Of a DNA stretch of 64,000 nt, positions 19,001-64,000 are shown piece by piece. Made by a program: the position numbers and the translations under genes. How positions within the stretch are numbered: the stretch's first letter is position 1; each line of letters opens with the position of its first letter. The notes under the pieces are model-generated. The model was not told the origin of the DNA. It did not search any database and saw only the letters and a program-made list of their open reading frames with translations. The stretch covers positions 744,001 through 808,000 of the forward strand of contig NW_026515673.1 in the NCBI RefSeq assembly GCF_025526975.1, written 5' to 3'. The stretch comes from Fimicolochytrium jonesii. Taxonomy: Eukaryota.

Positions 19001-20432
19001 CGTGGTGATGATCTCTCGCAGCCACATACGTCTCAGCCAGCAACGCCTCCGGTAACAGCGTGTGCGCGGCTTTCGACAAGAAGCCTTCTTCTGGTGTTCC
19101 TGAGCCACTGCGAGAGTGGTGCTTATGTTTGTGGTGGTCCTTTTCCTTTACAACCGCATCAGCTAGTAGCGCCTCTGGAAGCAATGTGTGCGCGGCTTTT
19201 GATAGGAATCCTGGCTCCGGTTGCGGTGAAGCTGAGCTTTCGCGCGAATGGTCGTTGTTTATATTTACTTCTACATTCACAGCAGGAGCTGCGCCTACTA
19301 TGGCTTCCGGCAAAAGTGCATGTGCAGCCTTCGACAGCAGGCCTTGTTGAGGGGCTTGCTGTGGGGCTTGTTCGGGGGCAGGTGAACTGGTGCGCGACGG
19401 AACCTCCGCTGTCCTTTCCGCCCTTTGTCGGTTTTTAGGCTTGGTCGTGGGCGACGGGGCAGCAGGTGGAGTCCCCACATCCTTCGCCGCTTCAGTGGAC
19501 GTCGCAGCCGCTGTGGTGGCGTTTGCGTTGGCACCATATTTGAAACTGCCAAAGGGGAACGCATGCTTCCGCAGGTGCTGTGGCCGCGGCGTATCGTCCG
19601 CATCCTCATGTAGCAGTGGCAATGCATACGGCTGGGCGGGTTGGGCCTTGACTGCCGCTGCACCATCCGCTGAATCAACCTTGTCGTCGCTAGAGCGCCT
19701 GAACATGCCCAGGAACTTCTTCGGATGATCGTGCGCCTGTTCTTCCGCCGTCTCAGTCGCGGCGCCGAACGTGAACATGCTCACTGCTTTCGCTACAATG
19801 CCCTCCTTCGGCTCAGCAGGCTGCTCAGCTGCATTACCAGATCCATTCGCGACGTCTACATCTTGCGCCACTGGCTTCTCGGGAGCTGGCGTGGTGTCGA
19901 AGGTAAAGATGTGCCGGGCTCTCGCTACCATGCCTTCCTCTGGCTTCGTAGGAGCCTCTTCCACAGTGGGCGTATGCTCATTCCCCGTCCCCGTCACGTA
20001 ATGCAATGCTCGTTTCAGTACACCTTCCTTCTCTCCCGCACTTGCATCTACTTCCACGGTTTCCTGTGGGTCGGTCTCGCCGACGTCAGGCACCATCTGG
20101 CTATCCACCACCTCTTCCTCAATAACGCGGCGACGAGCAGCTCTTACGTGAACCGGCCGTAACGAGTTTCCGTCGTCGGTGGGCCGCGAAACGGCTCGTA
20201 GCACTCTGTGGTTGATCCCATCTCGTACTTCTAAAACGTGCGGAATCGACTCAGGGGTCGCAGCCGCGATCACTTCTTCCTCGTACTCCTCCTCGGTCTC
20301 TTCTACTTCTTCTCCATTGTTGTCGCGAACATACGCTCCCTCGTCGTCTTCGTCGGTTGCTCCAATGCCATCCTCCTCATCATCGTACTGCTCATTATCG
20401 GGCTCTTCCAGAGCTTGACTGCTTGCTTCCAT
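16083..20432 (-). CDS. Large intronless low-complexity protein (~1450 aa): acidic N-terminus, His-rich region with ~12 helical repeats, C-terminal coiled coil; function unknown
   Basis: The ORF is uninterrupted for 4.35 kb with the first ATG at 20432. The repeat consensus is EG(F/L/I)xxK(A/T)A(H/R)xxLPxALLAES. Confidence 0.8.
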   Translation of the reverse strand: MEASSQALEEPDNEQYDDEEDGIGATDEDDEGAYVRDNNGEEVEETEEEYEEEVIAAATPESIPHVLEVRDGINHRVLRAVSRPTDDGNSLRPVHVRAARRRVIEEEVVDSQMVPDVGETDPQETVEVDASAGEKEGVLKRALHYVTGTGNEHTPTVEEAPTKPEEGMVARARHIFTFDTTPAPEKPVAQDVDVANGSGNAAEQPAEPKEGIVAKAVSMFTFGAATETAEEQAHDHPKKFLGMFRRSSDDKVDSADGAAAVKAQPAQPYALPLLHEDADDTPRPQHLRKHAFPFGSFKYGANANATTAAATSTEAAKDVGTPPAAPSPTTKPKNRQRAERTAEVPSRTSSPAPEQAPQQAPQQGLLSKAAHALLPEAIVGAAPAVNVEVNINNDHSRESSASPQPEPGFLSKAAHTLLPEALLADAVVKEKDHHKHKHHSRSGSGTPEEGFLSKAAHTLLPEALLAETYVAARDHHHDHKHSHHSHPHHSHHSRSRSSSPHEGIISKAAHAVLPAALIAESLVGGHDSKHDKHHHHFRADSPHEGHLARAARKVLPDALLPESLADERDSKHPKHHRKHSDSHHHHHHEGLMAKAARKALPEVLLAESFIAEKQKHADPPENEGFVAKTARKMLPGALLAESVLVDRDNHHHHEGLISKAARKVLPEVLLAESLVAQNESRHPDTSHPEGLMAKAARKVLPGALLAESIVTEKGNHSDAHHEGIISKTARKVLPQALLAESIVHAEGSRDHHNGQKDDRSRSNSNSPAQQEGFFKKAAHTVLPAALLAESVGDSKDSGMLHKAAHMILPAALTAAAVQEGEDHKEKQDEKQEDPEQEKLLEQHFADLNQAQVEQEQAQVGQGQAQVGQVQSQPLPDPQSQGVSNPPFNYDYQSKTLPNPALTSLTLQRRPSAASGGPRRNTLSRLLSLSHLSLHRRGSKSNLSSNSGLVNSQATLSNSEGDLSGNAPDSNAKQGSTARSLTKKLGLRWKSRGGTSSSDLRDDNGAGGVLLGGWDGKTNKQFEEHRQQGSLPMRNDDMGSLMAGMYSGKGGFGPRPATFGRPPLPVEPKVQELEAQPSVQGTVAETQQQQPLQPTPRPQLPQQPVLLQPQAGAYPEHVHDTPMPPSGQWKVSQETIRPRPPYNIQTNPAFLTSGATSTNVSPQRSQADIVAPAGWEASLQGGILGDAKGQVGGTTAPPTVAGFLDSADSTTVYNLQMDLASAHALTNAQASALTRIQSANEGLATQIATLKQQLQVSQDAQRTHAELVSAHAALRGRCVELEGVVDGLRAQLEVAGEIRATGDATTVALELEQTVVEQNRTIEGLRNRVGELEIAIKQRDAMAVASLQKIQVTQKRMVDIYEAVTYTGIGGPGVAAAAAAAAIEYTGRPASLPWNPAMMGKPMVASAPPAYGGMSTGRLGYPQDEYMYGGMGQGQDFGAAMAALYSGRSY

Positions 20433-41641: not shown

Positions 41642-44600
41642 ATGTTTCTGCAACGTTCTCGCTTACATTATACTGTCTGTGCGTTGGTGCGGCGGCCGAG
41701 GGCTATCTCGACACGACCGGCTGAGGCTGCTGCTGCGCGCACGATCGCACGCTTCCGCGCACCGACGCCCTTTCACGGCTTCCCGTCCTGCGCAACGGCA
41801 TCTCTAACGTATTCGCCACAACAGTCTTTCGGAGCTCATATCATTCGAACCTATGCCACGAATAGCGCACGAAAGCTGGAAAGCGCCGCTGTCCAAAAGA
41901 AATTGGTAGAACGGTAAGAAGAATCGATATTTTCACAATACCCGCCAATAGCAGGCGTCTGATGTCGGTCGACAGGCTGGTTGATCTATCAAAGAAAGAG
42001 CTACTAAAACACGCGATATACTATGGAGTGCCTTGTACCAGCAAAACGCCAAATGAAGAGATCGCGGAAAAGATCGCGGAGACGTTGACGTCGGGGAAGC
42101 CGCTGCAGCTGAAGGAGAAGGCTTCAATCCCTTTGCCGGCTTTGCATAGGTATTTTCGTGTCTTCTATTCATGTTTGTGAATGCGGCATTGGGAGTGTAA
42201 TTGGGATGGTAACGAGTGCTAAGCCTCTGCGTATTTCTTTCAGCTTGCTGGAAATGTCTCTCAAACAGCTCAGGGTCATGTGCAGCTTCCTGCAAATCGA
42301 AGAGCAGGAGTTCAAAGACGAGCACATCGACCGGGTTTTGATAATCCATAGACTAGTCTGGGAAGCGCAGGCTAATCAACGAGCTATGCACGTGCTCGCA
42401 GACCGGTAGGCACATACTTCGTTTGTAAGTTCGTGTGCAGTGAAGTTCCTCGGCGAATCAACAACGAACAATTTTTCCCGATCCCACATTGTCCACCCGC
42501 AGCTTCAGAAGGTCTCTGTCGAGGGAGGATATGGTGATAGTTGCAAAGCTTTGCGGTGTGGAGACAAGGTCCTCTGACAGGCGGTACCTTATGACACGTC
42601 TTCGGAAAAGATTTACTGAAGGCTTCGTCTTCGTACGGAACACGGAAGTTGATGGAAGAACGGGGCTGGTGTCAGGCGAATCTGTCTCGGAGATCGAAAT
42701 GCAAAGCGCCCAATCTACATGTGCACAGAATGCGCCAGGTTCAACCCTTCCACCGTCGGAACTGCAAACCCCGAAAACCGCTAGCGCCAAGACCGAAGCC
42801 CAAACCAACGCCACCCACCCCCAGAAAGCAGGGATCGGCCGAGCAAAAGCGAAACAGTCAGCAACATCAACGCGCGTCATACTGCCTGAGGTTGAGACAA
42901 AAGCCATGCCGCTCGCTCCCCGCGACCCGTCTCCGTCCGCGGAAGCCGTAACTCCACAATCCTCCAATGAAGATGGTCGAGGGAGCAAGATCCAAACCAA
43001 ATGGAAGCAGCCAGTTGCGGGGAAAATTTCCTTTCAGCACAAGGGCGAGCCGAAAGTGCACAAATTGACACTGTCTGAACTTATCCAGTACGCAGCCTCC
43101 GTTGGGCTCGCGACCACCGGTACGAAGGATGAGCTACGAATCCGAGTCAAGGCGTTTTTGAAAGAAAATCGCGCGAAGCAGCATCCGCCCTACAACATGA
43201 AATTACATGAAGCTGTTCAGTACGCAGAGTCTGTCGGGCTCTCGTCCGCTGGCACTATGGATGAGCTACACGAGAGAATCAATGCATTCTTGAGAGAGCA
43301 TCGCGCGAAGCGGTCGCCGCTCCGCTCTTTGACAGGACGTGAAGGTGCACATTACGCAGAGTCCATTGGCCTCTCGTCCGCTGGCACGAGGCAGGAGATA
43401 CTAAAGCGAATCAGGGCATTTTTGGGAGTGAGTCGCGCGAAGCAGCAGGCGCCTGGCGAATCAGAGGGTGAGGAACCCGAGGAGAAGAGAGACACCATGT
43501 CCAAATCGAGCAAGACATCAAGAGCCAAGCAACTAACCACCGATCAAAGGTCTCCGAAAGCGCTCGATTTCGCCACTATGACAGGGGAACAGCAAGCCGA
43601 GGAGCATAAAGAAGGTCGGCCCAAATCAAACCCTCAGAAACCAACCACAAACCAAGGGTCGCAGGAAGCGCAGCCCGATTTACCCGCTATGGCAGTCGAA
43701 CAGCAACCTAACGAGAAGAAAGAAAGTGCGCCTAAATCAAAGGAGAATTCAAAACCCCAGAAAACAACCACCAACCGAGGGTCCCCAGAAACGCCGTTTG
43801 ATTTCTCCACTATGACAGTCGAGCAGCAACCCAAGAAGAAAGAAAGTACGCCCGAGAAGAAATCGAAACCAAAGAAACCCACTAGGAACCAAGGGTCGCC
43901 ACAAGCGCAGCTCGATGTCTCCACTATGACAGTCGAGCAGCAACTGGAGGAGAAGAAAGAAAGTGCTGCGCCCAAATCCAAAAAGAAGAAATCAAAAGCT
44001 GAGAAACTGACCACCAATCAAGGGACCCCGGAAGCGCGGCTTGATTTCTCCACCATGACAGTCGAGCAGCTCAAATCCCACGTCCGACGGTACGGCCTTC
44101 CTCTGGCCGGCACGAAACCCTTTCTGAAACGCCGACTCGAGAACCATCTGCAGGAGATAAAACCCCTTCCAAGCCCTCGCACGATCGTCGCGATCGACGT
44201 CGGTGCGCTCAACCTCGGTTACGTGCGCTTGACCGTCCCGCCGTTCGACGGCGCCGACGAAAAACCGACCATCACGGATTGGGGACTGCTGAACATGAGC
44301 GCACCATTCAACTCCCTCTCAGCAATGGCGTCGGAATGCGTGGGCATCGCAGACCGGATCACCAACCCGCCCGCAGACATCTACATCATCGAACGCCAAT
44401 CGTGGCGGTCCGTCGGCGGACGCATGGCCATCCCCGTCGCGATCCTGGCCTCGCGCACGATCGAAGGAATGCTGATCGCGCTATTATCCGACCAACGCCG
44501 CGCTGGCGGGAAGGTGCAGGATATGACCCCCGGATCGGTCTCGCAGCACTTTGATCTGCACAACAAACTGAAAGCGAAGACCGGCACCAGCGCGGCCGTC

Positions 44601-49995: not shown

Positions 49996-50085
49996 TGCCG
50001 TCATCGGCGACGCCTCAGGCAGAGGTACAATGATGTGGATGGCAGATAACCACCACGGAAAATGGGATGGGGTGAGGATTCTAGA
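49996..50085 (-). ncRNA. Candidate Fanzor omegaRNA scaffold (3' of the Fanzor stop codon)
   Basis: It lies where characterised Fanzor1 omegaRNAs lie. The minus strand folds into hairpins (GTGGTGGT/GCCATCCAC, CCTC/GAGG, GCCG-ATGA-CGGC), and 52 nt of it are duplicated in Fanzor intron 4. There are no expression data. Confidence 0.45.
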
Positions 50086-53076
50086 CTACCTACGGTTACG
50101 GGAGAATGCGTCTGGTCTGCGGCCATTGCCAAACACCACCGAACGCACAATCGAGAGGAAATTCTTGGTGCTTAGGACGTCCCGATTGTGCACTCTCATC
50201 CGTAGTGGTCGTCTTCCAGGAATCTCAAATGGCGTCCAGTCTTGGTTGATACATTCGGGGTTGGGGCAACCCACCAATCCATGGACGAATTCCATTCTTC
50301 CCTTTCGAGCTTGCCACGGCCGAGGTGACAGCCGGCGTCGGATGTTTTTCTTCACACGCCCGTGGCAGTCTGGGCACACGGAAGACGTTCGATACTCATC
50401 TAGCAAGTAGCATGGGATGCTGTTTCTTGCAAAGAGTGTGCGGAATCTGATTTCCATGATGATGAGTTAGCATATTGAAATACATAAAAAACAATGATGG
50501 TCACTCACCCCTTGGTCTTTGATGACTCCTGAAAGCGCATGGTTTTTCCAGCATCGCTCCAATCACCCAAGATGACCGCAAAATGCTTTCCATACAGGCG
50601 TCGCATGTTCTTGATGAGCTTGGTCTCAGACTTTTGCCGCAGTGAGAACGCCTTGAATCTGCAAGCTACGTGAATCTCATCCTGGTAAAACTCATCCAGG
50701 GCGGGATCTGGGATATGGATGGATGTCAGCCCATGTGTTACCAAAGTTGAAAATCAAAGTTGAAGTAGAACATCATACCCGCATGTAAGTGATCCACAAT
50801 GAACGCTGAGAACGCCTCGATGTTCATGCTCTTGTGCGATGGCATATGTGATTCCATCTCAGCGATGCTGGCATTGATCTTTTGCTCCGTCATGTCTCGT
50901 TGAAAGTACCGAGACTTGGTCTCGACTGCCCGTTGATTGGATGTGTATCTGGTATGGGGTGGTGCATTGTGAGATTACTACTGCCCTGCTGCCCCCGCTG
51001 TCCCTGCTGTCGCCGCTATCCCCGCTGCCCATCATCGGCGACCCCTCAGGCAGAGGTGCAATGATGTGGATGTCAGATAACCATGCCGCTATCCCCGCTG
51101 TCGCCGCCGCTATCCCCGCTGTTGCCGCCGCTATCCCCGCTGTCGCCGCCGCTATCCCCGCTGTCGCCGCCGCTATCCCCGCTGTCCCCGCTGTCCCCGC
51201 TGGCCCCGCTGTCCCCGCTGCCCATCATCGGCGACGCCTCAACCCTCCCCGTCCCCGTTCCCAGGATCCCCTTCGTTTGACATTCTGCAATCAGCTGAAA
51301 CGTACCTAAATGGCCGCCCCTTCTTGATGTCTCGACAGAACAAGAGGGCAGGCTTGCCCGGATCAATGCTGACGATGTTTGGAGCCTCCCTTAGTTCGGC
51401 GATGTGGTGCTCAAAATACAGCTGTTTGACTTCTTCCTGCTTTTGGGCTTTGCTGCGCTTCCGGGCGCGATGGCCGTACTTGAGCCCTGGCTTCTTGAAG
51501 TGGATGGTAGCGGAATACCCGTTTGTGCTGATTGACCCATCAAATTTGAGACCAAGCTTCTTTCGATCCTTGAAGACCTTGTCCTGCAATCCGTCATTCA
51601 GCGAGGTGAGGTGAGTGAAATAAGCGCAGAGGGATAGAGACTTACATTCACGTTGAGAAACTGCCCCCACAGCTCCCGCTTACGTTGATCGGTGAGTTTC
51701 CCCATGCGATGGCAGCCCAAGGCCAGGATATGAGTGGTTAGGATCTTCGTGTCGATCCGAACAGATGACTGGATTCGAGGTTAGCGCAGCGGGATAGCGG
51801 AAAACAGCCGCATTCCACGGCGCTCATAGAGGCATGAGAGCTCACAATAGGCATCTGTGATGAGGCAAGGCAGGTGCGGACCATGATTAGACAAAAGAGG
51901 AACCCGCGGGGAGGGGGGGGACGGAAATATACTAACTCACCTAAATATGGCATTGCGTCCACCGCAAGGCTGTACGCAAGCGGCTCATCCTGGGGAGGAA
52001 ACAGAGCCCATAACTCGTCGAGGACGGTCCGCTCAAGTCGTGTGAGGCGCGCAAGCTCCTCTTCGGTTGGGTACTCTTCAAACGTCGCGTACTTCGTACT
52101 AAATTGACGGACACGAGGATAATAGTGTCGCCGCTGCGCTCTCCGGAGATGCCGTTCGACTTGCTTCAAACCAAGCCTCTCATTGACGTAGCGCAGAAAC
52201 ATTTGCATGAAATGCTCTTGTACATTGACTTTGAGGTTTGTGAAGATGCTGGTAGCCGTGTACGCTGCGGTCTGTTGGCATTTCCGCATGCGGATGGGGG
52301 CAAATCCGTGAACATCACAGTAGTCTTGAACCCATGGATGCAACTCTTGCGCGATGACCGGATTGCCATTGTAGCCTGGATTTTTGAGCAGCTCAAACAC
52401 CACACTGATGTGCTTGTCGGTGATGTCCGGGAAATTGTGTAGAGGATGATCAGCTGTGGTGGGCAGACGCAGTAAGTCAGGGCGCTGTTTCATGGGAAAT
52501 ATACAGCGCAGTGTACCTCAAAAACTCGCCAAGGTAGTACTTGAGAAAAAAGCTGGTGTGGCGCGCAAGGATGTGAACATTGCCGATGGATGCCGTCAGG
52601 CGCTCCCTTTGCTCCCTTTGAGCTTGATTATGGATGATTCGGTGAAGCAAAACCTTGGTGCTGGCGTGTGTCTGCGGGCGGGGTCGTTGAGCTGGTGGTG
52701 GTGGCGGGGGTGGTGGTGGCGGCGGTTCATACACCAGGGGTCCACCCGGTGTACTGGGAAAAAGGAAAGGGATGGGAGCGGGGAGGTTCAACGGGCGCTG
52801 CAGACCCCTGTCCGCGGGTGAAAGCCCTCGCTGCGGCTGCTGCTGCTGCCCGTCTTCATTGCCGGAGCTCTCGCCAACCATGTCTGCAATTGCTTGGGGC
52901 AAGTGGCGTTGGACAGAAGGTGGGAACTCGAATCGCGGGGGCTGCAGTGGTGTCTGCACAGCGGTTGGCAGACGTGGGGTAGCGGGAGTAACCTTCCTCC
53001 TCTTCCGCCGTGGTGGGGTAGCTCCGGTAAAGATGCCACAGCACAGGTGCCCCTGGAGCGCCTGGTGTGCTGGCAT
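50086..53076 (-). pseudogene. Fanzor1 (eukaryotic TnpB-like RNA-guided endonuclease), 7 exons, one in-frame TAA at 51783-51781
   Basis: Exons are (53076 or 52881)-52530, 52453-51941, 51854-51646, 51583-51306, 50948-50779, 50707-50509 and 50446-50086, and they splice in frame (693 aa from ATG 52881). RuvC-I is SIDPG, RuvC-II LLDEYRTS and RuvC-III HNRD. Zn ligands are CPDC and CPNPEC. Other typical motifs: ILGDWS, FRYTSNQR, RIDTKIL, SISTNGYS, and the RRPDAFSR tail. Confidence 0.9.
50985..51241. repeat. GC-rich minisatellite (about 18-nt unit GCCGCCGCTATCCCCGCTGTC-like) plus omegaRNA-like copies inside Fanzor intron 4
   Basis: Tandem units are directly visible at about 51085-51220. The intron 51305-50949 is 357 nt, whereas the other five introns are 62-86 nt. 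Confidence 0.9.
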
Positions 53077-53324
53077 GATGGCTGTGCTGTGCAGGCAAGT
53101 GGTGAGATCAAGGGGACCAAGCAAGGGGCCTGCTCTCAAGGAGGATCCAGGATTTCTGCTTACCTGCGATGTGTTGAAGGCTTTTAGAGATTGGTTGGGG
53201 GCTTGCCTTGATGTGCGAGGGTGGAAGTGTGCGCAATTGTGCGCAATTGTAAGAAGGAGCTCGGTCTCGGTGTGAAAGCAGGTCTGGAATTTGTCTTCTC
53301 GCCTGTGGAGCCGTTCCAGGCCAT

Positions 53325-53658
53325 TAACCCTAACCCTGCCCCGCGCGCTGAAGGCTGTATGTACTGTACACAAGGCCGAGGGTGAAGGCTGTAAGCCCGA
53401 CAGTGAAACCAGTCCGCGCCGTGCAGCGGGCCAGCCTGGCCAGCCAGCCTGGGGACCAGATTGGGGATGGCCAGATTGATATATACCCACCTCTTAATGG
53501 AATTGAGCGTCCGCGTCACAACAGATGTGCCATGTAGCGGGCCAGAGACGCGCCGTCCAGCGGGTCAACCCGGCCAGCCAGCCTCAAAACTTAGGTGGGG
53601 TTAGGGTTAGGCACAGTTGGGGCGCAGTCGTGGCTTGTCTTAGGGTTAGGGTTAGGGT
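53325..53658. promoter_or_regulatory. Divergent promoter region with telomere-type repeats (TAACCCTAACCCT at 53325; TTAGGG tracts at 53591-53612 and 53640-53658)
   Basis: The repeats are directly visible and inverted relative to each other, between two head-to-head genes. An ATATATA element lies near 53479. The regulatory role is inferred. Confidence 0.4.
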
Positions 53659-53817
53659 GGCTGATCGCCGCATCTCCAAGACCACACTCTCCTCCTCTCA
53701 CACGAAACATCAGGCGCTCGCAGCGGACGACAGCCCCCTCACCCCCCTCACCCCCCTGGCCAATGCCCACCTCCTTCCAGCTCAAGCCCGGCAACCCACA
53801 CAGAGCACACATTAAGC

Positions 53818-55595
53818 ATGCTCAGCGCTGACGAGGTGAGTGGCGGGTTTGCAGGCGTGGGCGTCCCCGCTGGGTGTTGACCGCCTGGGCTTGCGGCCCA
53901 TGCTGAGAACAACCGCCGCTTGCGGGAGGTCAACCTGCATGGGCTGCGCTGTCTGGGCGTGCTTGCTTTACGCTGATCTTGTGGCCCATGCTGAGCATGA
54001 CCGCCGCTTGCGGGAGGTCAACCTGCATGGGCTGCACTGTCTGGGCGTGTTTGCTTTACGCTGATCTTTCGGCCCATGCTGAGCACGACCGCCACTTGCG
54101 GGAGGTCGACCTGCATGGGCTGCACTGTCTGGGCGTGTTTGCTTTACGCCGATCTTTCGGCCCATGCTGAGCACGACCGTCGCTTGCGGGAGGTCGACCT
54201 GCATGGGCTGCGCTGTCTGGGCGTGCTTGCCAAGCGCTGATCTTGCGGGCTGAGCTGCTAACACCTTCCCTTCCCCCCTTCCCCTCTACCGCGCCGCAGG
54301 CCACGCCCCCCGTCGCACCCACCGCGATCGAGGCTCTTCTGATGGGCATGGGCAAGAGCCGCGCTACAGCTCTCTTCGGCGACATGGTGGCCTTTTTGTA
54401 TCCGCTGCTGGTAGACGCCGGCCTTGCCGCCCGGGACGCCAGCCTAGAAGACAAGGCCAAGGCGATTAGCCTTCTTTCAAGAAAGATCAAGCAAGACAAC
54501 CCCACCCTTTAGGGTGGGTGGATCAATAGGCCAACGCGGTCCCGTCACCAGAAGAAGCGCGCCAAGCACCACATTGGGCTCCAGTCCGGCATCATCGCCG
54601 CGATCAGCGATGGCAGCCTTACCACGGCCGACTTCTTGGTCGACCCCCAGCCCTCCGCTAGTCGCCCGGCTGCTCACATTGTGCTGCCAACGCCCGCCTC
54701 GTGCGATGGCTGGGAGGGCAAGATGGTCTATGCGGGGTTTGGGAAGAGGCCGGGGAAGGCGAGGGGCCTGGATGGGCTTGAGCGAATTGAACCCTGGGCG
54801 GGGGCCGACATCTACATCCACGACGAGCACGGTGCCCTTGTGGCCACAATCTCGTACAATAGCGCAGGTCGTCGCAAACACAACCTGCGGCTGGGGCTCG
54901 TCGTCGAGTCCTGTGGATCCCGGCCGGCTGTGGTTCGATGGAAGGCCTCAAGGGGCACAATGCACGCCGAGGGGCTTTGTTGTGGCAACAAGAACTCGGG
55001 ATATGCCAGGGGGACATCGCACTATTCAATGAAAGGAGGGGCAGACATGTCCGCAAAGAAGTTTCTCGTCGCCACGGAAAAGGCCTTCACCAAGCCACTG
55101 CTGCAGGAGCTCGCCAAACGCAACCCCACCGTGGCGGCCTCCCTGATGATGGCCATGCCAGAGGTGTACGGGCCAAATTCCGATGAGTTCCCCCTGCTGT
55201 TTGCCACCACCAACTATCAAGTCGTCGTTCAGTCCGACCCGTCGGACGACGGCGTAGCCGGCGAGCTGAACCCGCACACAGGACGCGCCATATGGAAGCT
55301 GACCCCAAAGGAGGAGCTTCCGGAGGAGCTTCAAGCCCGCAAGCTATGCGCATGGGCGGCAGGCTACGCCGCCGCTCCGCCAACCGTCGTCGGCGAGTGG
55401 GTATTTGCGCTGCCAGAGCAAGGCTTCTACTTGGTGCTGCAGCCCGACTGCATGTGGACGTGGATGCCTGACAAGCTCCACGGAACGGAGGTGCTTGACA
55501 CGTCCGGGGGCAGTCGCCACACAGCTGTTGTGAAGCTGTCCCTGGCGCCGGCCGCGGCCATCCGGAAATACGGCCTCCCTAATGAAGATGAATAA
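53818..55595 (+). pseudogene. Tet/JBP-like 2OG-Fe(II) dioxygenase gene (exons 53818-53835 and 54300-55595) with one in-frame TAG at 54510-54512
   Basis: The frame stays open on both sides of the TAG. Motifs GTMHAEG, ATTNYQVVVQSDPSD (HxD position reads QSD), WVFALPEQGFYLVLQPDCMWTW, LHGT and distal R(HTAVV) match the double-stranded beta-helix layout of transposon-associated Tet-like dioxygenases. The intron has a GTGAGT donor, CTAAC branch point and CAG acceptor. Confidence 0.6.
53896..54247. repeat. Four tandem 88-nt repeats, each with internal hairpins, inside the intron of the dioxygenase-like gene
   Basis: GCCCATGCTGAG starts at 53896, 53984, 54072 and 54160, an exact 88-nt period. Confidence 0.95.
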
Positions 55596-55807
55596 CCCGG
55601 CAGTCATCCGTTCGGACCTTTTAGGTTGCCGGTCTAATATATCGCAGCCCTCCGCTCTCTAACTCATCATCCGCTTGGGCCTTTTTGGTCGTCGGCTGTT
55701 AGTGTAGAAATGATTGCAATGTACACAAGTCGCTACCCACGATGGTCTTCTGAAAAGCCTTCCTGAATCACACACTGCGTTCGAAAACTGTTAGAAGCGC
55801 ACGAAGC

Positions 55808-55870
55808 GATTTGGATGAGGGCAGGATCGATTTGGATGAGGGCAGGATCAATTTGGATGAGGGCAGGACA
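55808..55870. repeat. Three tandem 21-nt repeats (GATTTGGATGAGGGCAGGATC)
   Basis: Directly visible. Confidence 0.9.
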
Positions 55871-56672
55871 TCGGGGCCTCAAGTTTCCGCGCCGGCAAGG
55901 CCACTCACCTCGCAATCCTCGGCTACGACACACTGTGGATTCAACGCTGGGGTCGATGGTCTTCCGACGCATTCCAACGGTATATCCGCACACACCTCGG
56001 CGTTCAACTAGCGCTGCGGCAGAATTCCGCTCCTTTTACCAAAGCTGGGGTTGTATATTAGATCTCCTATTATCTGTGGCTCATCTCCGCCCATATTCAT
56101 GTATATTTGCCATTTGCTCAATACACGGCCACTTTGCCCTACTTCACATCTACTTCATATCTACCCAACATCTAGCAACCTCAAACCGGCCTATTCTCTG
56201 CGGCGCCAAGCGCAAACCACGGTGCATAGGCACAAACACGGTCCCCGGGCACTTCCCGGTTTGACGTGCGGGGGACAAATTTCTCCCCAAAATCCATTGA
56301 TGGCTGACTAGTACAGCGTGGGGCGAAAATTGGTCCCCCCGAAAATTGGTCCCCCGGCAATGACATCTCATATTCGCTCTACTTCACATCTGCGTATCCG
56401 GCAACTTGCCTTGGCATCTCACCTCTCATATCGCCGCCATCTTTGGGTCGGACCGCGCACGGGGCTCATTTCTTGAACGCAAATCATCTCTCATATTGTC
56501 ATAAGCATCTTGCCGTGCGTGATCCGGCGTCGTTGGGTCCAAAGATGTGCTGGATCATATGTATTTTTTTATCGTTGTTAATATACGTGTACGCGGCACA
56601 ACCCCTACCCGTACAGCCCCTACATGTACTGCTCCCCCCAATAAACCCCGCGCTCCAATAAAATCTTTCCTC

Positions 56673-57211
56673 TGTTATGGACGACGCGCCCATACCATAA
56701 GCTTACCTACTGACAGCCGCCAATGTCAACCGCCAAATGTCAAACGCCAATGTCAATGTCAATGTCAGTGTCAATGTCAGTGTCAATGTCAATGTCAATG
56801 CCACTCCCCCTCTCTCCTCTCATTTCGCCAATCCTCCCGCAATATCACCACTCCTCCTCTCTCCTCTCATTTCGCCAATCCCCCCTCGGCTTCTCCACAC
56901 CCCCCACTACTTCCCCATAGCCAGCAGCTGTAGCAATGCTCTCTACGCTCGCCACGCACGCTCTAGGAGCATAGCTGGCGCCCCCCCAGTCCCCTCTTGT
57001 TGTTGTTGTTCTCTGATCTGCTGGGTTGCCTATCTATAAATAGCCGGCCTCTCTTCGTCCATTCCCTTCCTCCCCAGCAGATCAACACCAGTTCTTCTCA
57101 TCTCCTGTTCTAGTCCTTGTTTCTTGTTTCGCCAATACAACCTCTTGTCGCCTATCACACTCGCCCTGTCTTCTCTACTTCGCTTCCGCCCCCGTCGTCG
57201 AGATCATAACA
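56673..57211 (+). repeat. 5' LTR of element 1 (539 nt)
   Basis: It starts TGTTATGGACGACGCG, the same start as the LTR of element 2, and ends TAACA. TATAAA is at 57035, and a (TGTCAA/G)n microsatellite is at about 56750-56800. Confidence 0.88.
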
Positions 57212-57280
57212 GTTTGATCTGCTCCAACACTGCGAAGTTCAGATCCTGTCCAGCCCTGCATCCGACAAACCTTTTTCGCC

Positions 57281-58279
57281 ATGTCCCAACCCGGATCTGT
57301 ACCTTTCACCGCCAAGCAATGGAACGATATGTGCCAAGCCATCGCCGCCTTGGAAAGCCAAAACGCCAACTTGCAGGCCAACCTAGCGCAGGCCCAAGCC
57401 GACGCACAAGCTGCCCAGAGCATCGCCGCCCAGGTTCAAGCTGATACGTACACCCGTCCCCAAGTCGCCAACCCTGCTCTGGAGCCAAGAATCAGCTCGC
57501 CCAAGAAGTTTGATGGTACCCGCAGGAAATCCCGTGGGTGGTTGAACAACATCCGGTTGATGTTTGCTCTCCAGCCCGACCGCTACCCCAGCGACATCAT
57601 CAAGATCCAAACGATTGGCACCTACCTCACCGGCACTGCGCAAGCCTGGATGGCGCCCCTAGTCGAACGCCAAGATCACAGCCTTCAGGACTTTGATAGT
57701 TTTATCAGTCAGATGCAATCGGTCTTCGGAGACAGCGACAGGGTCTGCACCTCTGAAAACAAGCTCCAGAACCTTCGCCAAACCCGTGCAGCAACCGAGT
57801 ACGTTGCTGAGTTCCGCCAGCTACAATGCGATGTCTCCTGGAACGACCAGGCCCTGATTGCTACCTTCCGCCGTGGCCTAAAAGAAGACGTCAAAGACCT
57901 GATGCTCACAATGCCCCCTGCGGCCACCATTGATGTGTTGATGGAGCAGGCTATCCAGTGCGATAACCGGCTGTTTGAGCGCCGCCTGGAGCGAAACAGA
58001 AGCCGCCAGACCTTCCCGGTTCCCCATACCTTGTTTACTACTACCACCACTGTCGACCACAGCGAGCCTATGCAGATTGACGCCGCTCGTCCCCGCGGCC
58101 CTCTGAGCCCTCAGGAACGCCAACGCCGCATTTCCAACAAACTCTGCCTTTACTGCGGTGGCGCGGGGCACATTGCAAAAGTCTGCCCCGTCAAGAACAA
58201 GACCACCACCCGTGCCGCCAACGTCGACATCAAAGAACCCTCCACCAAACAGGGTTTTCCCAAAGTCCAGCCGCAGTAA
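57281..58279 (+). CDS. gag: Retrotransposon Gag (Tf1/sushi/PEG10-like capsid plus zinc knuckle)
   Basis: PKKFDG, LTGTAQAW, LRQT..YVAEF, EPMQID and CLYCGGAGHIAKVC are present. Confidence 0.93.
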   Translation: MSQPGSVPFTAKQWNDMCQAIAALESQNANLQANLAQAQADAQAAQSIAAQVQADTYTRPQVANPALEPRISSPKKFDGTRRKSRGWLNNIRLMFALQPDRYPSDIIKIQTIGTYLTGTAQAWMAPLVERQDHSLQDFDSFISQMQSVFGDSDRVCTSENKLQNLRQTRAATEYVAEFRQLQCDVSWNDQALIATFRRGLKEDVKDLMLTMPPAATIDVLMEQAIQCDNRLFERRLERNRSRQTFPVPHTLFTTTTTVDHSEPMQIDAARPRGPLSPQERQRRISNKLCLYCGGAGHIAKVCPVKNKTTTRAANVDIKEPSTKQGFPKVQPQ

Positions 58280-60513
58280 AGCCCCAGCGACTGGACAACA
58301 CACACCGCCCCGGGCCTCCTAACCTCGCAGCTCCTGCAACGGGAGAGGCCACCCCCCTGGTTCCCGACTCCGTTATAGCCGACACAACCCTCCTAGCCGC
58401 TGCCCATGTCGAAAACTCCGAAATTAACCCCCGCGCCATGCTTGCGCTGGGTCCCGTCAAACCCTTCAACTACCCCGTTACCATCATGGTATCATCCAGC
58501 CGCGCCCCGATACCTATCTCAGCCATGATCGACAACGGTGCCCTGTCCTGCTTCATCGACAGAGACTTTGCCCGCAAACACCGCATCGCCCTAGTCCCAC
58601 AGCAGCGTCCACTGACGATTGAACTCATTGACGGTCAACTCAGCTCTGCTGGACCAATCACCCATCACACCCAACCAGTAGGCATGTGGGTCGACGACCA
58701 CTTCGAAGAACTCGTCTTCCATGTCACCAAATCACCCCATGCTCCAATCCTCCTTGGTCTCCCCTGGCTCCGCCTCCACGACATTAACCTTGACTTCAAG
58801 AACCTTTCGGTCGGTTTCCGTTGCGACAGTCAGTACCATGAATTCGCGAATTGGGACAACTCTCCAGCACCCCTGAGCCCAGCACCCGCCAGAACCCCCG
58901 AGCCCTTGATCCGCATCCCCCAGGATGAAGTTCCCGTCAACGAAACATGGTCGATTCCAGTACCCAAGGTATCTCGCTCCAGCACCCCAGAACCGGCTCC
59001 CACGCCGCTCCGAGTCTCGTTCATCTCCGCCCCAGCCTTCCGGGTCGCAGCAAGGCATGACCAGGTCTTTGTCGCCTACACCAACCCTGCGAAACCCGAT
59101 CTCCCGACCTCGCCTAGCCCCAGTAACCCCCCGACACCCGAGAAAGACATCAAAGACTTCCTGCCCCCCGAGTATCAAGACTTCGCCGACGTTTTCGAAA
59201 AGAGAAATGCTGACACACTCCCCGAGCACCGACCCTACGACTGTCCAATCGATCTGGAAGAAGGCAGGCAGCCACCTTTCGGCCCGATCTACAGCCTCAG
59301 CGAACCAGAAATGAAGGCACTCTGCGAATACCTCGAAGAAAACCTCGCCAAAGGATTCATCAAACCCTCAAAGTCCCCTGCCGGTGCGCCAGTCTTATTT
59401 GTGAAGAAAAAGGACGGTTCTCTCCGCCTCTGCGTCGATTATCGAGGCCTGAACAGCATCACGGTGAAGAATCGCTACCCCCTGCCCCTGATCAACGGTA
59501 TCATGGATCGTTTGCGCGGCGCCCGCCGTCTCACCAAGATCGACCTTCGCGGCGCTTATAACCTCTTACGCATGCGCCCGGGCAATGAATGGAAGACCGC
59601 CTTCCGCTGCCGCTACGGCCTATTCAAATACAATGTCATGCCCTTTGGACTCAGCAATGCTCCTGGCCTCTTCCAGTACCTGATGAACGACATCTTCCGC
59701 GACATTCTCGATGTGTTTGTTGTCGTCTACCTCGACGATATCCTGATATTGTCCAAGAACCCCGAAGATCACCCCAAACATGCCCGCGAAGTCTTGTCCC
59801 GCCTCCGACAGCATGGGTTGTACGCCAAACCAGAGAAGTGCGAATTCAACCGCGAATCCGTTGAGTTCCTAGGCTTCATCATCTCCGAGAAAGGCATCCA
59901 GATGGACCCCAAGAAGATCGCTGCCATCACGGATTGGGAACCTCCCAAGACTGTCAAAGGCGTCCAGCGATTCCTCGGCTTTGCCAACTTCTATCGCCGA
60001 CTCATCCAAGGTTATTCCAGGATCGCTACCCCGCTCACAGCCCTGACCCGGAAAGACATCCCGTACGCCTGGACACCCGCCGCAAACACCGCCTTCGAGA
60101 ACCTGAAGAAAGCATTCACCACCGCCCCCATCCTTGCTCACCCTGACCCAGAGAAGCCCTTTGTCGTCGAAACTGACGCCTCCGACTTCGCTCTCGGCGC
60201 AGTTCTCCTCCAACCTGACCAGGACAATCAGCTCCACCCCATGACCTTCCACTCTCGCAAATTCACGGCCGAAGAGATCAACTACGAGATCTACGACAAG
60301 GAACTTCTGGCCATCCAAGACTCCTTTGCCCAGTGGCGACACCATCTCATTGGCGCCTGTCACAAGATCACCGTTTACTCTGACCATAAAAACCTTCAGT
60401 ACTTCATGACCACCCGCACCCTGAACCGCCGCCAAGCCCGCTGGTCAATATTCTTCTCGGATTTTGACTTTGTCATTACCTACCGCCCCGGTTCCCAGCA
60501 GCACCAAGCCGAT
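58252..60513 (+). CDS. pol: Pol (protease-RT-RNase H) in the -1 frame relative to gag, truncated by a nested insertion
   Basis: The -1 frame is open from the slippery site GGGTTTT (58252-58258). Motifs are IDNGA (protease), LCVDYRGLN, VYLDDIL and ETDASDFALGAVL. Confidence 0.9.
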
Positions 60514-61044
60514 TGTTAAGAATGGGCGGAGCCGACGGAAATAGAGGCGACTTGTGGTGCAGGTTGTTGACAGGTAATGGTATTCAGACCGAAACAAGAA
60601 CTAGAACAAGACTAGGAAGAACTGGTGTTGATCTGCTGGGGGATCAGGAAGTGGGGAGCTCAGGGGAGGCGGCTATTTATGCTTTTCTGGGAAGGCTGGG
60701 GAAGCGTGGGGAAGCAGAAGGGTACGGAATGAGAGGGAAGCCAAGAGAAGCGCCAAGGGTGGGGGAAGCATAGAAACAGAAGACTGGGGATGGGGTGGCT
60801 ACGCTGAGGCTGTGGGCGGGTACGTGGGGAAGTATGAAGAAGGGTTTGTAAGCGCCGAGTGTTGGGAGGTGTGGCTACGTGCGGCTGCGTGGAGAAATGA
60901 AGGCAGTGGCAGGTGTGGGGTAGCGCGGCTGCGTGCGGCTGCGAGGTTTGGCAGATGTCAGGTTTTCACAGGGAATTGACATTGACTGACTGTTGGGATG
61001 CTGTCATGAGGTAAGCGCATGGTATGGACGCGTCGTCCATAACA
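60514..61044 (-). repeat. 3' LTR of element 2 (531 nt), preceded by a polypurine tract AGGAGGGGGTGA
   Basis: The minus strand begins TGTTATGGACGACGCG right after the PPT and ends CTTAACA. Confidence 0.9.
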
Positions 61045-61056
61045 TCACCCCCTCCT

Positions 61057-64000
61057 TTAGCCACGGCGTCCGGATGTTGTTTTGATGTTGGCAGGCTTTG
61101 GTCGGGGTTTGTCGGGGTACTTTTGGTGGAACTGGGCAACAAGCTCTTGACAGCGGGCAAGGTGTTCCACTGGCTCCCATGTGTTCTCCGAGCTTGGCCA
61201 ACCCTGCCACTTGATGAGGTACTGAAGGTGCGTGCGTCGAATACGGGAGTCAAGAATGTCTTCCACAATCCATTCCTCCTGTCCTTCGACTTCTTCTGGT
61301 GGGGTGGGTTCTGGCTCAGTTCGCTCCGGAATGGTGAAACGTGGTTCAAGAAGGGAGACATGGAAGACGTTGTGAATTTTGTAGGATGGGGGAAGCTTGA
61401 GGCGATATGTGACCGAGTTGATCTTCTCCGTGATTGTGAAGGGGCCAATCTTACGGTGATCAAGTTTCTGGGAAGGTCGGAGAGTCTTGAGATTCCGCTG
61501 TAAGAGCCAGACACTGTCCCCGGGTTTCATGTCTGGGCCAGGTGCCCTCTTAGCATCGGCAAAGCGCTTCATGCGTCCTTGGGCCTCCTTGAGCTCAGTG
61601 GCAAGCTGTTCATGGATTTCCTTGAGATGGTTGGCACGAGCTTCGGCTGCAGGATTAAGGGATTCGGTTGTGGTGGCGGAAGCCAGACTGAATCGAGGAT
61701 GGAACCCATAGTTGGCGTAGAAGGGGGTTGTCTGGGTGGCGGAGTGGATGGTGTTATTGTAAGAGAACTCAGCAGAAGACAAGAGTTCCTTCCAGTTATC
61801 TTGTTGATAGTTGCAAAAGCAGCGAAGGTATTGCTCAAGAATCTGATTGGTCCGCTCGGTTTGTCCATCGCTCTGGGGATGGAACGCCGATGAGAGGTTG
61901 ACCTTGGTTCCCAGGAGAGCGAAGAGACGTTTCCAGAAGTGGGAGTTGAACTGTGGGCCACGGTCAGATACAATATCGTCGGGGAGTCCATGGAGCCGGA
62001 TGACATGGTGCCAGATCAGATCTGCAGTTGACTCAGCGGTGGCAGTTTTCCTGCACGGTACAAAGTGCGCCATCTTGGTGAACCGGCAGATGACAACGAG
62101 CACAGAATCAACCCCATCACTGGCGGGTAGATGCGTGATGAAGTCCATGGAAATTGACCCCCAGGGGCGGTCAGGGACCTGCAGGGGTTGAAGGAGTCCG
62201 TAGGGCTTGTGTCTGCTGGTCTTGGCTTGAGCACATACGTCGCAGGACCTGATGTAGGACTCGACAAAACGCCACTGGCTAGGCCACCAGTAGTTGCGTG
62301 AGATGAGCTCCAGGGTCTTTGACATGCCGTAGTGTCCTGCCAAACGCGTGTCATGCATGTCCCGGCAGATCTCAGCACGGAGCTTGTTGGTGGGGACGTA
62401 GACAAGGTTGTCGTACAGCAGAACCCCATTTTCCTCGGAGAATCGCTTTATCCGTTCTTGGTCTTCTTGAGATTGCTGGGCAATGGGGGCCCTAAGCTGT
62501 CGCCGGATGGTTTGCGCAAACACGTCAGATGCCAGGGCAGCTTTGATTTGGTCAAGGAGCGAGGAGTCCAGTGGGGTCAGATAAGTGGCGGCCAGGCGGA
62601 GGTGGTCAGGGGTGAGGATCGTGGTTTCCTGGGAGCGGAATGCTTCTTCCCCCTCCCTTAGCTCGTATTCAGAGCGACGAGAGAGGGCGTCAGCTTGGTG
62701 TTGCTGGGTACCAGGGCGGTATGTGCTGACAAAGTCGAAATCAGCAAAGAAGATTGACCAGCGGGATTGGCGGCGGTTGAGGGTACGGGTAGTCATGAAG
62801 TACTGGAGGTTCTTGTGGTCACAGTAAACGACGACCTTGTGGCGGGCACCAATGAGGTGGTGTCGCCATTGAGCAAATGAGTCTTGGATAGCCAGGAGTT
62901 CCTTGTCGTAAATCTCATAGTTGATTTCCTCAGGAGTAAATTTGCGGGAGTGAAAGGCCACGGGGTGGAGTTGATCTGTGTCGTCGGGTTGAAGGAGGAC
63001 GGCGCCAAGGGCAAAGTCGGAGGCATCGGATTCGACAATGAAGGGCTTGTCAGGGTCAGGGTGAGTCAGGATAGGTGCGGAGGTGAAGGCTTTCTTGAGG
63101 GTTTCAAAAGCTAGGTGTGCAGCGTGGGTCCATTTGAATGGCAAGTCTTTGCGAGTGAGCGTGGTCAGGGGTGCAACGATCGCAGAGTACCCTTTGATGA
63201 ATCGCCGGTAGAAGTTGGCAAAACCAAGGAAGCGCTGGATGCCTTTGACATTCGTCGGGGGTTCCCATTCGGTAATGGCAGCCGTCTTCTTTGGGTCCAT
63301 GGAAATGCCTTGCTGGGAGATGATAAACCCCAGGAACTCAACAGAGTCACGGTTGAATTCGCATTTTTCCGGTTTCGCATACAGCCCGTGCTGGCGGAGC
63401 CGTGAGAGCACCTCTCGGACGTGGTTGGGGTGGTCTTCTGGGTTTTTTGAGAAGATCAGAATGTCGTCAAGGTAGACCACAACAAAAAAGTCGAGAATGT
63501 CACGGAATATGTCGTTCATGAGGTGTTGGAATACTCCAGGGGCATTGGTGAGCCCAAACGGCATGACATTATACTCGAATAGGCCGTAGCGACATCGGAA
63601 CGCTGTCTTCCATTCATCCCCTGGCCGGATCCGAAGAAGGTTGTAGGCTCCCCGGAGGTCAATCTTGGTGAGCCTGCGTGCCCCTCGAAGACGATCCATG
63701 ATGCTGTTAATCAAGGGCAAGGGATAGCGATTCTTGATGGTGATATTGTTGAGTCCACGATAGTTGACGCACAGACGGAGGGAACCGTCCTTTTTCTTGA
63801 CAAAGAGGACTGGGGCACCGGCGGGAGACTTGGAGTGCTTGATGAACCCCTTAGCTAGGTTCTCTTCAAGGTAGTCACAGAGTGCCTGCATTTCAGGCTC
63901 GCTGAGACTATAGATCGGGCCGAACGGTGGCTGTTTGCCCTCTTCTAAGTCGATGGGACAGCCGTAGGGTCGGTGCTCTGGGAGGGTATCCGCGTTCTTC
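61057..64000 (-). CDS. pol: Pol (RT-RNase H-integrase-chromodomain), 5'-truncated by the window edge
   Basis: YLDD; HHCC motif (HDTRLAGH..CDVC); SMDFI/VSDRGPQF/DGQTER (DDE); GPF; and chromodomain EWIVEDILDSR..YLIKWQGWPSSENTWEP. Confidence 0.96.
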   Translation of the reverse strand, partial: KNADTLPEHRPYGCPIDLEEGKQPPFGPIYSLSEPEMQALCDYLEENLAKGFIKHSKSPAGAPVLFVKKKDGSLRLCVNYRGLNNITIKNRYPLPLINSIMDRLRGARRLTKIDLRGAYNLLRIRPGDEWKTAFRCRYGLFEYNVMPFGLTNAPGVFQHLMNDIFRDILDFFVVVYLDDILIFSKNPEDHPNHVREVLSRLRQHGLYAKPEKCEFNRDSVEFLGFIISQQGISMDPKKTAAITEWEPPTNVKGIQRFLGFANFYRRFIKGYSAIVAPLTTLTRKDLPFKWTHAAHLAFETLKKAFTSAPILTHPDPDKPFIVESDASDFALGAVLLQPDDTDQLHPVAFHSRKFTPEEINYEIYDKELLAIQDSFAQWRHHLIGARHKVVVYCDHKNLQYFMTTRTLNRRQSRWSIFFADFDFVSTYRPGTQQHQADALSRRSEYELREGEEAFRSQETTILTPDHLRLAATYLTPLDSSLLDQIKAALASDVFAQTIRRQLRAPIAQQSQEDQERIKRFSEENGVLLYDNLVYVPTNKLRAEICRDMHDTRLAGHYGMSKTLELISRNYWWPSQWRFVESYIRSCDVCAQAKTSRHKPYGLLQPLQVPDRPWGSISMDFITHLPASDGVDSVLVVICRFTKMAHFVPCRKTATAESTADLIWHHVIRLHGLPDDIVSDRGPQFNSHFWKRLFALLGTKVNLSSAFHPQSDGQTERTNQILEQYLRCFCNYQQDNWKELLSSAEFSYNNTIHSATQTTPFYANYGFHPRFSLASATTTESLNPAAEARANHLKEIHEQLATELKEAQGRMKRFADAKRAPGPDMKPGDSVWLLQRNLKTLRPSQKLDHRKIGPFTITEKINSVTYRLKLPPSYKIHNVFHVSLLEPRFTIPERTEPEPTPPEEVEGQEEWIVEDILDSRIRRTHLQYLIKWQGWPSSENTWEPVEHLARCQELVAQFHQKYPDKPRPKPANIKTTSGRRG

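What the first reader, a model, noticed from the sequence alone, without database searches (positions are those of the whole stretch)
49996..55595. Fanzor RNA-guided nuclease paired head-to-head with a Tet/JBP-like dioxygenase: candidate new two-gene mobile module
Seen: a spliced Fanzor1 gene (minus strand) and a spliced 2OG-Fe(II) dioxygenase-like gene (plus strand) diverge from a shared ~0.7-0.9 kb region at the edge of a TE block. Both have one repeat-inflated intron and one nonsense codon, suggesting a shared history. No transposase is visible. Known: Fanzors are transposon cargo, and Tet/JBP-like enzymes that oxidise 5mC or thymine are cargo of some fungal DNA transposons. I do not know of a described Fanzor-Tet pairing. 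Inference: a selfish unit coupling RNA-guided cutting with removal or modification of host cytosine methylation (anti-silencing), or RNA-guided base modification.
Basis: partly seen in the sequence, partly recalled or inferred. Interest (0 to 1): 0.88.

Follow-up and report, generated by a model that had tools for sequence, protein, structure and literature searches.

The report
Chance-adjacent Fanzor and Tet-like transposon genes
Two broken genes sit back to back in a chytrid fungus, an RNA-guided DNA cutter of the Fanzor family and a predicted TET-type DNA-base oxidase, but each has its own scattered multi-copy family and the other annotated copies do not appear to be neighbours, so the pairing is likely an accident of transposon clustering rather than a new two-gene system.

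Summary
Both genes are real. Minus strand: a 7-exon Fanzor1 (758 codons, 45% identical to Spizellomyces Fanzor, D-E-D kept, one TAA). Plus strand: a 2-exon gene (437 codons, one TAG, QxD instead of HxD). Its relatives keep HxD..H..R, and its low-confidence model matches TET2, NgTET1, CcTet and CMD1 best, so it is a predicted TET/JBP-like dioxygenase. The module is not supported. Named records of one chytrid species hold 11 further Tet-like and 19 further Fanzor copies. By GenBank accession order, which I infer follows position, 0 of 11 and 0 of 19 sit next to a partner (nearest 15, 56, 81, 90 genes apart; 7 Tet-like copies share no contig with a Fanzor found). The intron repeats are unrelated, the 88-bp one is family-wide, the trees show no co-descent, and no ends enclose the pair. 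One chance adjacency has probability 4-39%. Limit: no genome DNA was available, so unannotated partners are untested. What remains is a dispersed, likely mobile TET-like family in chytrids (also three near-identical copies in Powellomyces), outside the lineages covered by the 2025 survey, plus an intron-rich Fanzor family.

The parts
50086..53076 (-). Fanzor1 gene, 7 exons, 758 codons, pseudogenised copy of a multi-copy family
   Evidence: Gene model; 87-91% identical to paralogues, 45% to S. punctatus P0023; SpuFz1 structure hits E 4e-24, 1e-29, 7e-15
51781..51783 (-). In-frame TAA in Fanzor exon 3 (codon 378; K in paralogues), upstream of the RuvC residues
50949..51305 (-). Fanzor intron 4 (357 nt) with 9/21-bp tandem repeat and a copy of the 3' flank
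49998..50085 (-). 3' flank of the Fanzor ORF, expected position of the omega-RNA (inferred from SpuFz1, not shown); 49998-50052 recurs at 51029-51083 (93%)
   Evidence: folding no better than shuffles (z -0.9); no Rfam match
53077..53296 (-). Upstream sequence shared with another Fanzor copy (P0022), so part of the Fanzor element; similarity not detected beyond about 53300
53325..53658 (.). Four GGGTTAGGG motifs between the genes: one on the Fanzor sense strand (53328-53336), three on the Tet-like sense strand (53598-53657); possible promoter motifs
   Evidence: 4 found, all here, 0.35 expected in 64 kb
53818..55595 (+). Predicted TET/JBP-like 2OG-Fe(II) dioxygenase gene, 2 exons (53818-53835, 54300-55595), 437 codons, pseudogenised copy of a multi-copy family
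53836..54299 (+). Intron (464 nt) with 4.1 copies of an 88-bp unit that other family members also carry
54510..54512 (+). In-frame TAG (codon 77; W in paralogues)
55230..55517 (+). Catalytic-motif codons: Q (H in relatives) 55230-32, D 55236-38, H 55479-81, R 55515-17
55861..56061 (+). Short remnant resembling the C-terminus of a tyrosine recombinase (motif recalled; not confirmed by Pfam or PDB)
56673..60520 (+). Neighbouring Ty3/gypsy retrotransposon (gag, protease, RT, RNase H; truncated); shows the site is a transposon cluster

Best explanation
Two decayed genes, a Fanzor1 and a predicted TET/JBP-like dioxygenase, lie head to head, and they likely arrived as independent insertions of two different mobile families in the same transposon cluster. 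Shown: both families are multi-copy and dispersed over many contigs, and both window copies carry a stop codon (the dioxygenase also lacks its first iron ligand), so neither is expected to work here. Inferred for intact Fanzor copies, from SpuFz1: a non-autonomous SPu-1-like element whose protein, loaded with an RNA from the element's 3' end, cuts the empty donor site and so helps the element persist, with a transposase supplied in trans. Inferred for intact Tet-like copies, from fungal TET+ transposons and CcTet: an Fe(II)/2-oxoglutarate enzyme carried by an unidentified DNA transposon that oxidises a methylated base, most likely 5mC on transposon DNA (6mA or thymine not excluded), and so loosens silencing. 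Any help it gives Fanzor would be unspecific and in trans.
For: Separate families: 11 other Tet-like models on 11 contigs and 19 other Fanzor models. Nearest Fanzor to a Tet-like copy is 15, 56, 81 and 90 accessions away; 7 of 11 have none on their contig; 13 of 19 Fanzors have no further Tet-like copy on theirs. If partners were always present and annotated 20% of the time, 0 of 19 has p = 0.014. One chance adjacency: 4% genome-wide, 14-39% if both families keep to 3000-1000 gene neighbourhoods. No co-descent: the window Fanzor is sister to P0028 (support 0.95), but the Tet-like copy on that contig (P0012) is not sister to the window Tet-like copy; private changes 2.9% vs 5.4%, Fisher p = 0.039, terminal branches 0.039 vs 0.074. 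No TIR, TSD or Helitron end around the pair above chance. The relative SPu-1 is a Fanzor-only element (PMC3627910, PMC10432273, passages). TET-like fold: top 4 of 48,161 chains are TET2 (Z 8.2, rmsd 4.2, 195 aligned), NgTET1 7.1, CcTet 6.8, CMD1 6.6; HxD in 8 of 11 paralogues, all four motif residues in 6 of 11, in 3 of 4 Powellomyces proteins and 6 of 6 unnamed relatives. CpG o/e 0.56-0.92 in the Fanzor, intergenic, Tet-like and gypsy segments (1.03 in the post-Tet segment) against 0.99-1.02 in the rest of the window.
Against: No DNA of other copies could be read (0 runs listed), so partners that are present but unannotated are untested. The Fanzor list is a lower bound: the search covered 455-2000 aa plus one cluster's members. 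Position-ordered accessions are my inference from few calibration points. The closest other pair (P0028/P0012, 15 accessions) involves the window Fanzor's nearest relative. The layout looks tidy: 741 bp, divergent, telomere-like motifs on both sense strands. The age difference is weak and biased by unequal family sizes; difference from the majority residue is 5.8% vs 7.5%. The Tet-like call rests on a model of mean pLDDT 45.5; Foldseek gave no E <= 0.001; the window protein and its paralogues have no Pfam hit, and relatives hit PF20515 only below its cut-off. No substrate was tested and no transposase for either family was found.
Confidence: 0.8

Rival explanations
1. A composite element carries both genes (Fanzor for homing, TET-like enzyme against silencing, on a bidirectional promoter); most other annotated copies are fragments, or their partner was not annotated.
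For: Tight divergent layout and TTAGGG motifs on both sense strands; both gene types are known cargo of the same superfamilies, e.g. Helitron, EnSpm, hAT, Harbinger (PMC12730594 abstract; PMC13565253 passage); both families diverged to a similar degree.
Against: 0 of 11 and 0 of 19 annotated copies adjacent although both broken window genes were themselves annotated; no co-descent; no enclosing ends.
Confidence: 0.08
2. A one-off nested insertion: one element landed inside the non-coding end of the other (or of a third, tyrosine-recombinase element), giving a single chimeric locus that never spread.
For: Fanzor-family similarity stops near 53300; a C-terminal extension shared by two Tet-like copies (P0002, P0007) is not found downstream here; a 10-bp direct repeat flanks the Tet-like gene (53365, 55720); Ty3 nested in SPu-1 loci is reported (PMC10432273 passage).
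Against: The 10-bp repeat is within chance (9-43% of control zones); element ends could not be mapped; the recombinase remnant is unconfirmed. Functionally this is a special case of the best explanation.
Confidence: 0.08
3. The plus-strand family is a 2OG-Fe(II) oxygenase with another substrate (AlkB-like repair, RNA or small molecule), or a host family spread by segmental duplication rather than transposon cargo.
For: AlkB-family chains follow at Z 5-6, within about 1 of CMD1 and CcTet; no curated family cut-off passed; two copies (P0009, P0012) share the same defects, as after duplication.
Against: All four TET/JBP representatives rank above every other chain and recur at the top of Foldseek; PF20515 is the only consistent Pfam hit, 3 of 12 rows; one copy per contig, star-like decay and a parallel 94-95% identical trio in Powellomyces fit a mobile family.
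Confidence: 0.04

Closest known systems
SPu-1 / SpuFz1 (Fanzor1 of Spizellomyces punctatus)
   Same: 45% identity over 610 aligned residues; D-E-D RuvC residues with the E close before the CxxC; multi-copy, no transposase, chytrid host.
   Different: Six introns and a longer low-complexity N-terminus (SPu-1 is one 633-aa ORF in 2.1 kb); no 30-33-bp TIR found here; 3' flank not shown to be an omega-RNA; this copy has a stop.
TET+ fungal DNA transposons (PU, AG, PE types; Kojima 2025, PMC12730594) and Pfam PF20515
   Same: Multi-copy TET/JBP-like gene in transposon-rich DNA; HxD..H triad; same nearest structures (CMD1, CcTET, NgTET, TET2).
   Different: Described there only from Pucciniomycetes, Agaricomycetes and Pezizomycetes ('chytrid' and 'Fanzor' 0 occurrences), inside elements with a transposase; here a chytrid, no transposase or ends found, about 40-residue insertion after HxD, below the PF20515 cut-off. 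Type assignment not tested.
CcTet, NgTET1, CMD1, TET2 (solved TET/JBP enzymes)
   Same: Best four fold matches, Z 6.6-8.2.
   Different: 5-10% identity; no sequence-level match; substrate unknown; CMD1 shows that this fold can do other chemistry on 5mC.

Membership tests
Fanzor1 | Sequence homology to Fanzor1 across REC, RuvC and zinc-finger regions | tested here: met
   SpuFz1 hits for three separate exons; 45% to P0023
Fanzor1 | RuvC D-E-D with the E a few residues before the zinc finger | tested here: met
   IDPG 496, LDEY 654 then CPDC, NRD 726; feature stated in PMC13565253 passage
Fanzor1 | Uninterrupted reading frame in this copy | tested here: not met
   TAA at 51783-51781
Fanzor1 | omega-RNA from the 3' end; RNA-guided cleavage | not testable with these tools
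   No RNA holder listed; folding z -0.2 to -1.4; no DNA of other copies to align
SPu-1-type element | 30-33-bp terminal inverted repeats | tested here: not met
   Best inverted match score 9-10, within null 7-12.5; decayed or more distant ends not excluded
TET/JBP dioxygenases | Double-stranded beta-helix fold closest to TET/JBP | tested here: met
   Top 4 of 48,161 chains are TET/JBP, rows 5-50 other 2OG-type oxygenase folds; model is low-confidence, pLDDT 45.5
TET/JBP dioxygenases | HxD..H iron triad and 2OG-binding Arg, at family level | tested here: met
   All four in 6 of 11 paralogues and 9 of 10 outside relatives; equivalence to TET residues rests on conservation, not on a residue-level structural alignment
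TET/JBP dioxygenases | Triad and open frame in the window copy | tested here: not met
   QxD and TAG at codon 77
PF20515 (2OG-FeII_Oxy_6) | Score above the curated cut-off (27 bits) | tested here: not met
   Window protein and paralogues no hit; relatives 16-20 bits
TET/JBP dioxygenases | Oxidation of 5mC, thymine or 6mA in DNA | not testable with these tools
   Needs an enzyme assay
TET+ DNA transposon | Gene lies inside an element with transposase and defined ends | tested here: inconclusive
   No transposase, TIR or TSD above chance in this one copy; other copies' DNA unavailable
Proposed Fanzor-Tet module | Pairing recurs at other loci | tested here: not met
   0 of 11 and 0 of 19 annotated copies adjacent; indirect test, unannotated partners not covered

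The most novel reading that the evidence does not exclude
A transposase-less chytrid element co-mobilises an RNA-guided Fanzor nuclease and a TET-like methyl-base oxidase from one bidirectional TTAGGG-box promoter, joining homing with erasure of host silencing; further paired copies exist but escaped annotation.
Probability: 0.08. Interest if true: 0.8.

Novelty: new member of a known kind. Interest (0 to 1): 0.3.

Why it matters
The pairing, the part that would have been surprising, is probably accidental. The by-product has modest value: a likely mobile TET/JBP-like family in Spizellomycetales chytrids would extend transposon-borne TET genes beyond the three Dikarya lineages surveyed in PMC12730594. 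Both species that hold it are reported as high-6mA chytrids (PMC11258239 passage), and 5mC marks transposons in Spizellomyces (PMC12695648 passage), so apparently intact copies (P0003, P0010, P0011, P0034) offer a direct test of 5mC versus 6mA as substrate. The intron-rich Fanzor family adds SpuFz1 relatives with possibly different ends.

Tried and rejected
No genome held for this window. No sequencing run was listed; this says nothing on expression. Scans for related loci found none: Tet-like in metagenome contigs (0 of 71 stretches), a distant Tet-like relative in viral contigs (0 of 22) and phages, Fanzor in metagenome and viral contigs (0 of 407 and 0 of 51). First AlphaFold model on close paralogues only was useless (pLDDT 32.6). 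Sequence searches of PDB for the Tet-like family gave nothing significant. ESM Atlas gave no usable hit for P0003 and no answer for the distant relatives. TIR, TSD, CA..TG and Helitron-end scans gave only chance-level matches; the 10-bp repeat TGTACACAAG was rejected as a TSD on the null. Self-targeting of intron 4 by the 20 nt at 50017-49998 was considered and set aside: the upstream bases there are G-rich, whereas Fanzor1 TAMs are described as AT-rich, and the scaffold end is unknown. Rfam: no match. A Toxin_21 hit at E 0.51 in one paralogue is chance. No complex prediction was run, as no binding is claimed. Earlier scan notes: nothing found. Iyer et al. 2014 and 2009 are not held.
Full report
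Observation. The region holds two spliced genes facing away from each other with 741 bp between their ATGs. Minus strand: seven exons from 53076 to 50086 give 758 codons with one TAA (51783-51781); six introns of 62-357 nt have normal ends, the first a GC donor. Exon limits agree with tblastn of 20 paralogue models. Three exons hit the SpuFz1 structure at E 4e-24, 7e-15 and 1e-29; the read-through is 45% identical to S. punctatus P0023 and keeps IDPG, LDEY-CxxC and NRD. Plus strand: exon 53818-53835 (MLSADE, a start shared by 4 paralogue models), a 464-nt intron, exon 54300-55595; 437 codons with one TAG at 54510-54512. Downstream lie a possible tyrosine-recombinase scrap (motif recalled; unconfirmed) and Ty3/gypsy elements from 56673; upstream of the Fanzor's 3' end lies a host peroxin gene.

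What the plus-strand gene is. The window protein has no Pfam hit. A search of 5.8 billion proteins gave 9 hits: the window's own record and 8 paralogues at 66-89% identity, all named Fimicolochytrium jonesii; cluster members added 3, making 11 other copies on 11 contigs. A profile search of 1.84 billion representatives gave 10 hits, 7 outside this species: Powellomyces hirtus (one cluster of three 607-aa copies, 94-95% identical, and one further protein), Geranomyces, and four unnamed clusters. Their alignment shows F-x(3)-N-x(5)-HxD, W, F-x-x-P-E-x-G, W-x-W, HGT and R. H, D, H and R are all present in 6 of 11 paralogues and 9 of the 10 outside proteins aligned (the Geranomyces fragment ends before the motif and was left out); the window copy has Q for the first H. 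Three unnamed relatives hit PF20515 'Tet-like 2OG-Fe(II) oxygenase' at E 0.0009-0.011, below the cut-off. AlphaFold on 12 sequences gave pLDDT 45.5, pTM 0.50. Foldseek had no hit at E <= 0.001, though CMD1 and CcTet fill 7 of the first 10 rows. VIA-align ranked TET2 (Z 8.2, rmsd 4.2, 195 aligned), NgTET1 (7.1), CcTet (6.8) and CMD1 (6.6) first of 48,161 chains, then AlkB-type enzymes at Z 6.0 and below. Such Z values alone are middling, the C-terminal strands of the model are unreliable, and no residue-level alignment was seen; the call rests on agreement of fold ranking, motif and Pfam. I put TET/JBP-like at about 90%.

Is the pair a module? No genome, reads or related loci were available, so I used annotated copies. 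The Fanzor search (455-2000 aa only) gave 11 hits, 10 from the same species, and cluster members 10 more. One, P0021, is a model of the window's own locus and was left out, leaving 19. Result: 0 of 11 Tet-like and 0 of 19 Fanzor copies are adjacent; nearest distances 15, 56, 81, 90; 7 Tet-like copies have no Fanzor on their contig. With a fixed partner annotated at 10, 20 or 30%, 0 of 19 has p = 0.135, 0.014, 0.001. One adjacency among 12 and 20 random copies has p = 0.04 over about 11,400 positions and 0.14-0.39 if both keep to 3000-1000; this window is a transposon cluster and was picked for looking odd. Trees on masked alignments show short inner branches and private changes in nearly all copies; the window Fanzor groups with P0028, while the Tet-like copy on P0028's contig groups with P0009, P0003 and P0011, not with the window copy; private changes are 21 of 721 against 23 of 425 sites (p = 0.039, biased by family size). 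Against my reading: P0028 and P0012 are the closest other pair, the Fanzor list is incomplete, and unannotated partners are invisible.

The Fanzor intron repeat (9/21 bp) and the Tet-like intron repeat (88 bp) are unrelated; the latter is read in 6 other copies. No TIR, TSD or Helitron end encloses either gene or the pair above chance. Fanzor-family similarity reaches about 53300. The four GGGTTAGGG motifs are non-random and unexplained; they may be promoter motifs used by each element.

Mechanism. Shown: both window copies are broken. Inferred for Fanzor: as SpuFz1, an omega-RNA from the 3' end guides cutting next to a TAM; SPu-1 elements carry no transposase and are proposed to act with transposons in trans (PMC10432273, passages; PMC3627910, passages); restorative homing is the current model (PMC13565253, passages). 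Inferred for the Tet-like family: oxidation of a methylated base to escape silencing, as proposed but not validated for fungal TET+ transposons (PMC12730594, parts 1-4 of 7 read). 5mC is confined to transposons in Spizellomyces (PMC12695648, passage), and CpG is mildly depleted in most of this window's transposon block (0.56-0.92, one segment 1.03, against 0.99-1.02, no significance test). F. jonesii and P. hirtus have over 1% 6mA (PMC11258239, passage and one supplementary row) and CcTet also acts on 6mA (PMC13297926, passages), so the substrate is open: my odds are 5mC 65%, 6mA or both 20%, other 15%.

Novelty. Searches for Fanzor with dioxygenase (4 papers) and Fanzor, TET, demethylase (3 papers) listed only editing reviews (listings seen), so I found no described pairing; but the pairing does not recur, as far as testable. 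Fanzor introns are known (PMC10530073, passages). Transposon TET genes are known from three Dikarya lineages; chytrids are not mentioned in that survey's main text, and searches listed no paper on chytrid TET expansions (listings only). Iyer et al. 2014 and the survey's supplements were not seen and may list chytrid members. Verdict: two new members of known kinds, adjacent by chance; interest 0.3.

Noticed in passing
window 49998-50052 and 51029-51083, 51222-51241: 55 nt from the Fanzor 3' flank (expected omega-RNA zone) recur inside Fanzor intron 4 at 93%, and its last 20 nt a third time (19/20). Templated insertion, nested mini-element end or self-matching guide are all open.
   Followed up: partly
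window 51248-51286 vs P0022: The P0022 model seems to read part of intron 4 in the opposite orientation, hinting at an inversion in another copy (weak, low-complexity match).
   Followed up: partly
window 53328-53657: Four GGGTTAGGG telomere-like motifs, the only ones in 64 kb (0.35 expected), each on the sense strand upstream of a gene; also a 36-bp direct repeat at 53415/53549.
   Followed up: partly
window 55807-56061: Three 21-bp tandem repeats followed by a scrap resembling a tyrosine-recombinase C-terminus; if the Tet-like gene rides a YR element that would differ from described carriers.
   Followed up: partly
window 56673-64000: Two Ty3/gypsy elements in opposite orientation, 80% alike over 1.3 kb; the first ends abruptly at about 60520 against LTR-like sequence.
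   Followed up: no
P0034, P0041, P0042: Three 607-aa Powellomyces copies, 94-95% identical, with intact HxD..H..R and their own N-terminal repeats: a recent parallel expansion and good assay candidates.
   Followed up: partly
P0009, P0012: Two Tet-like copies on different contigs share the same defects, so a broken copy was duplicated or moved in trans.
   Followed up: no
window 18058-19221 and 43065-44095: Degenerate coding repeats (about 100-bp and 114-132-bp periods) in host ORFs.
   Followed up: no
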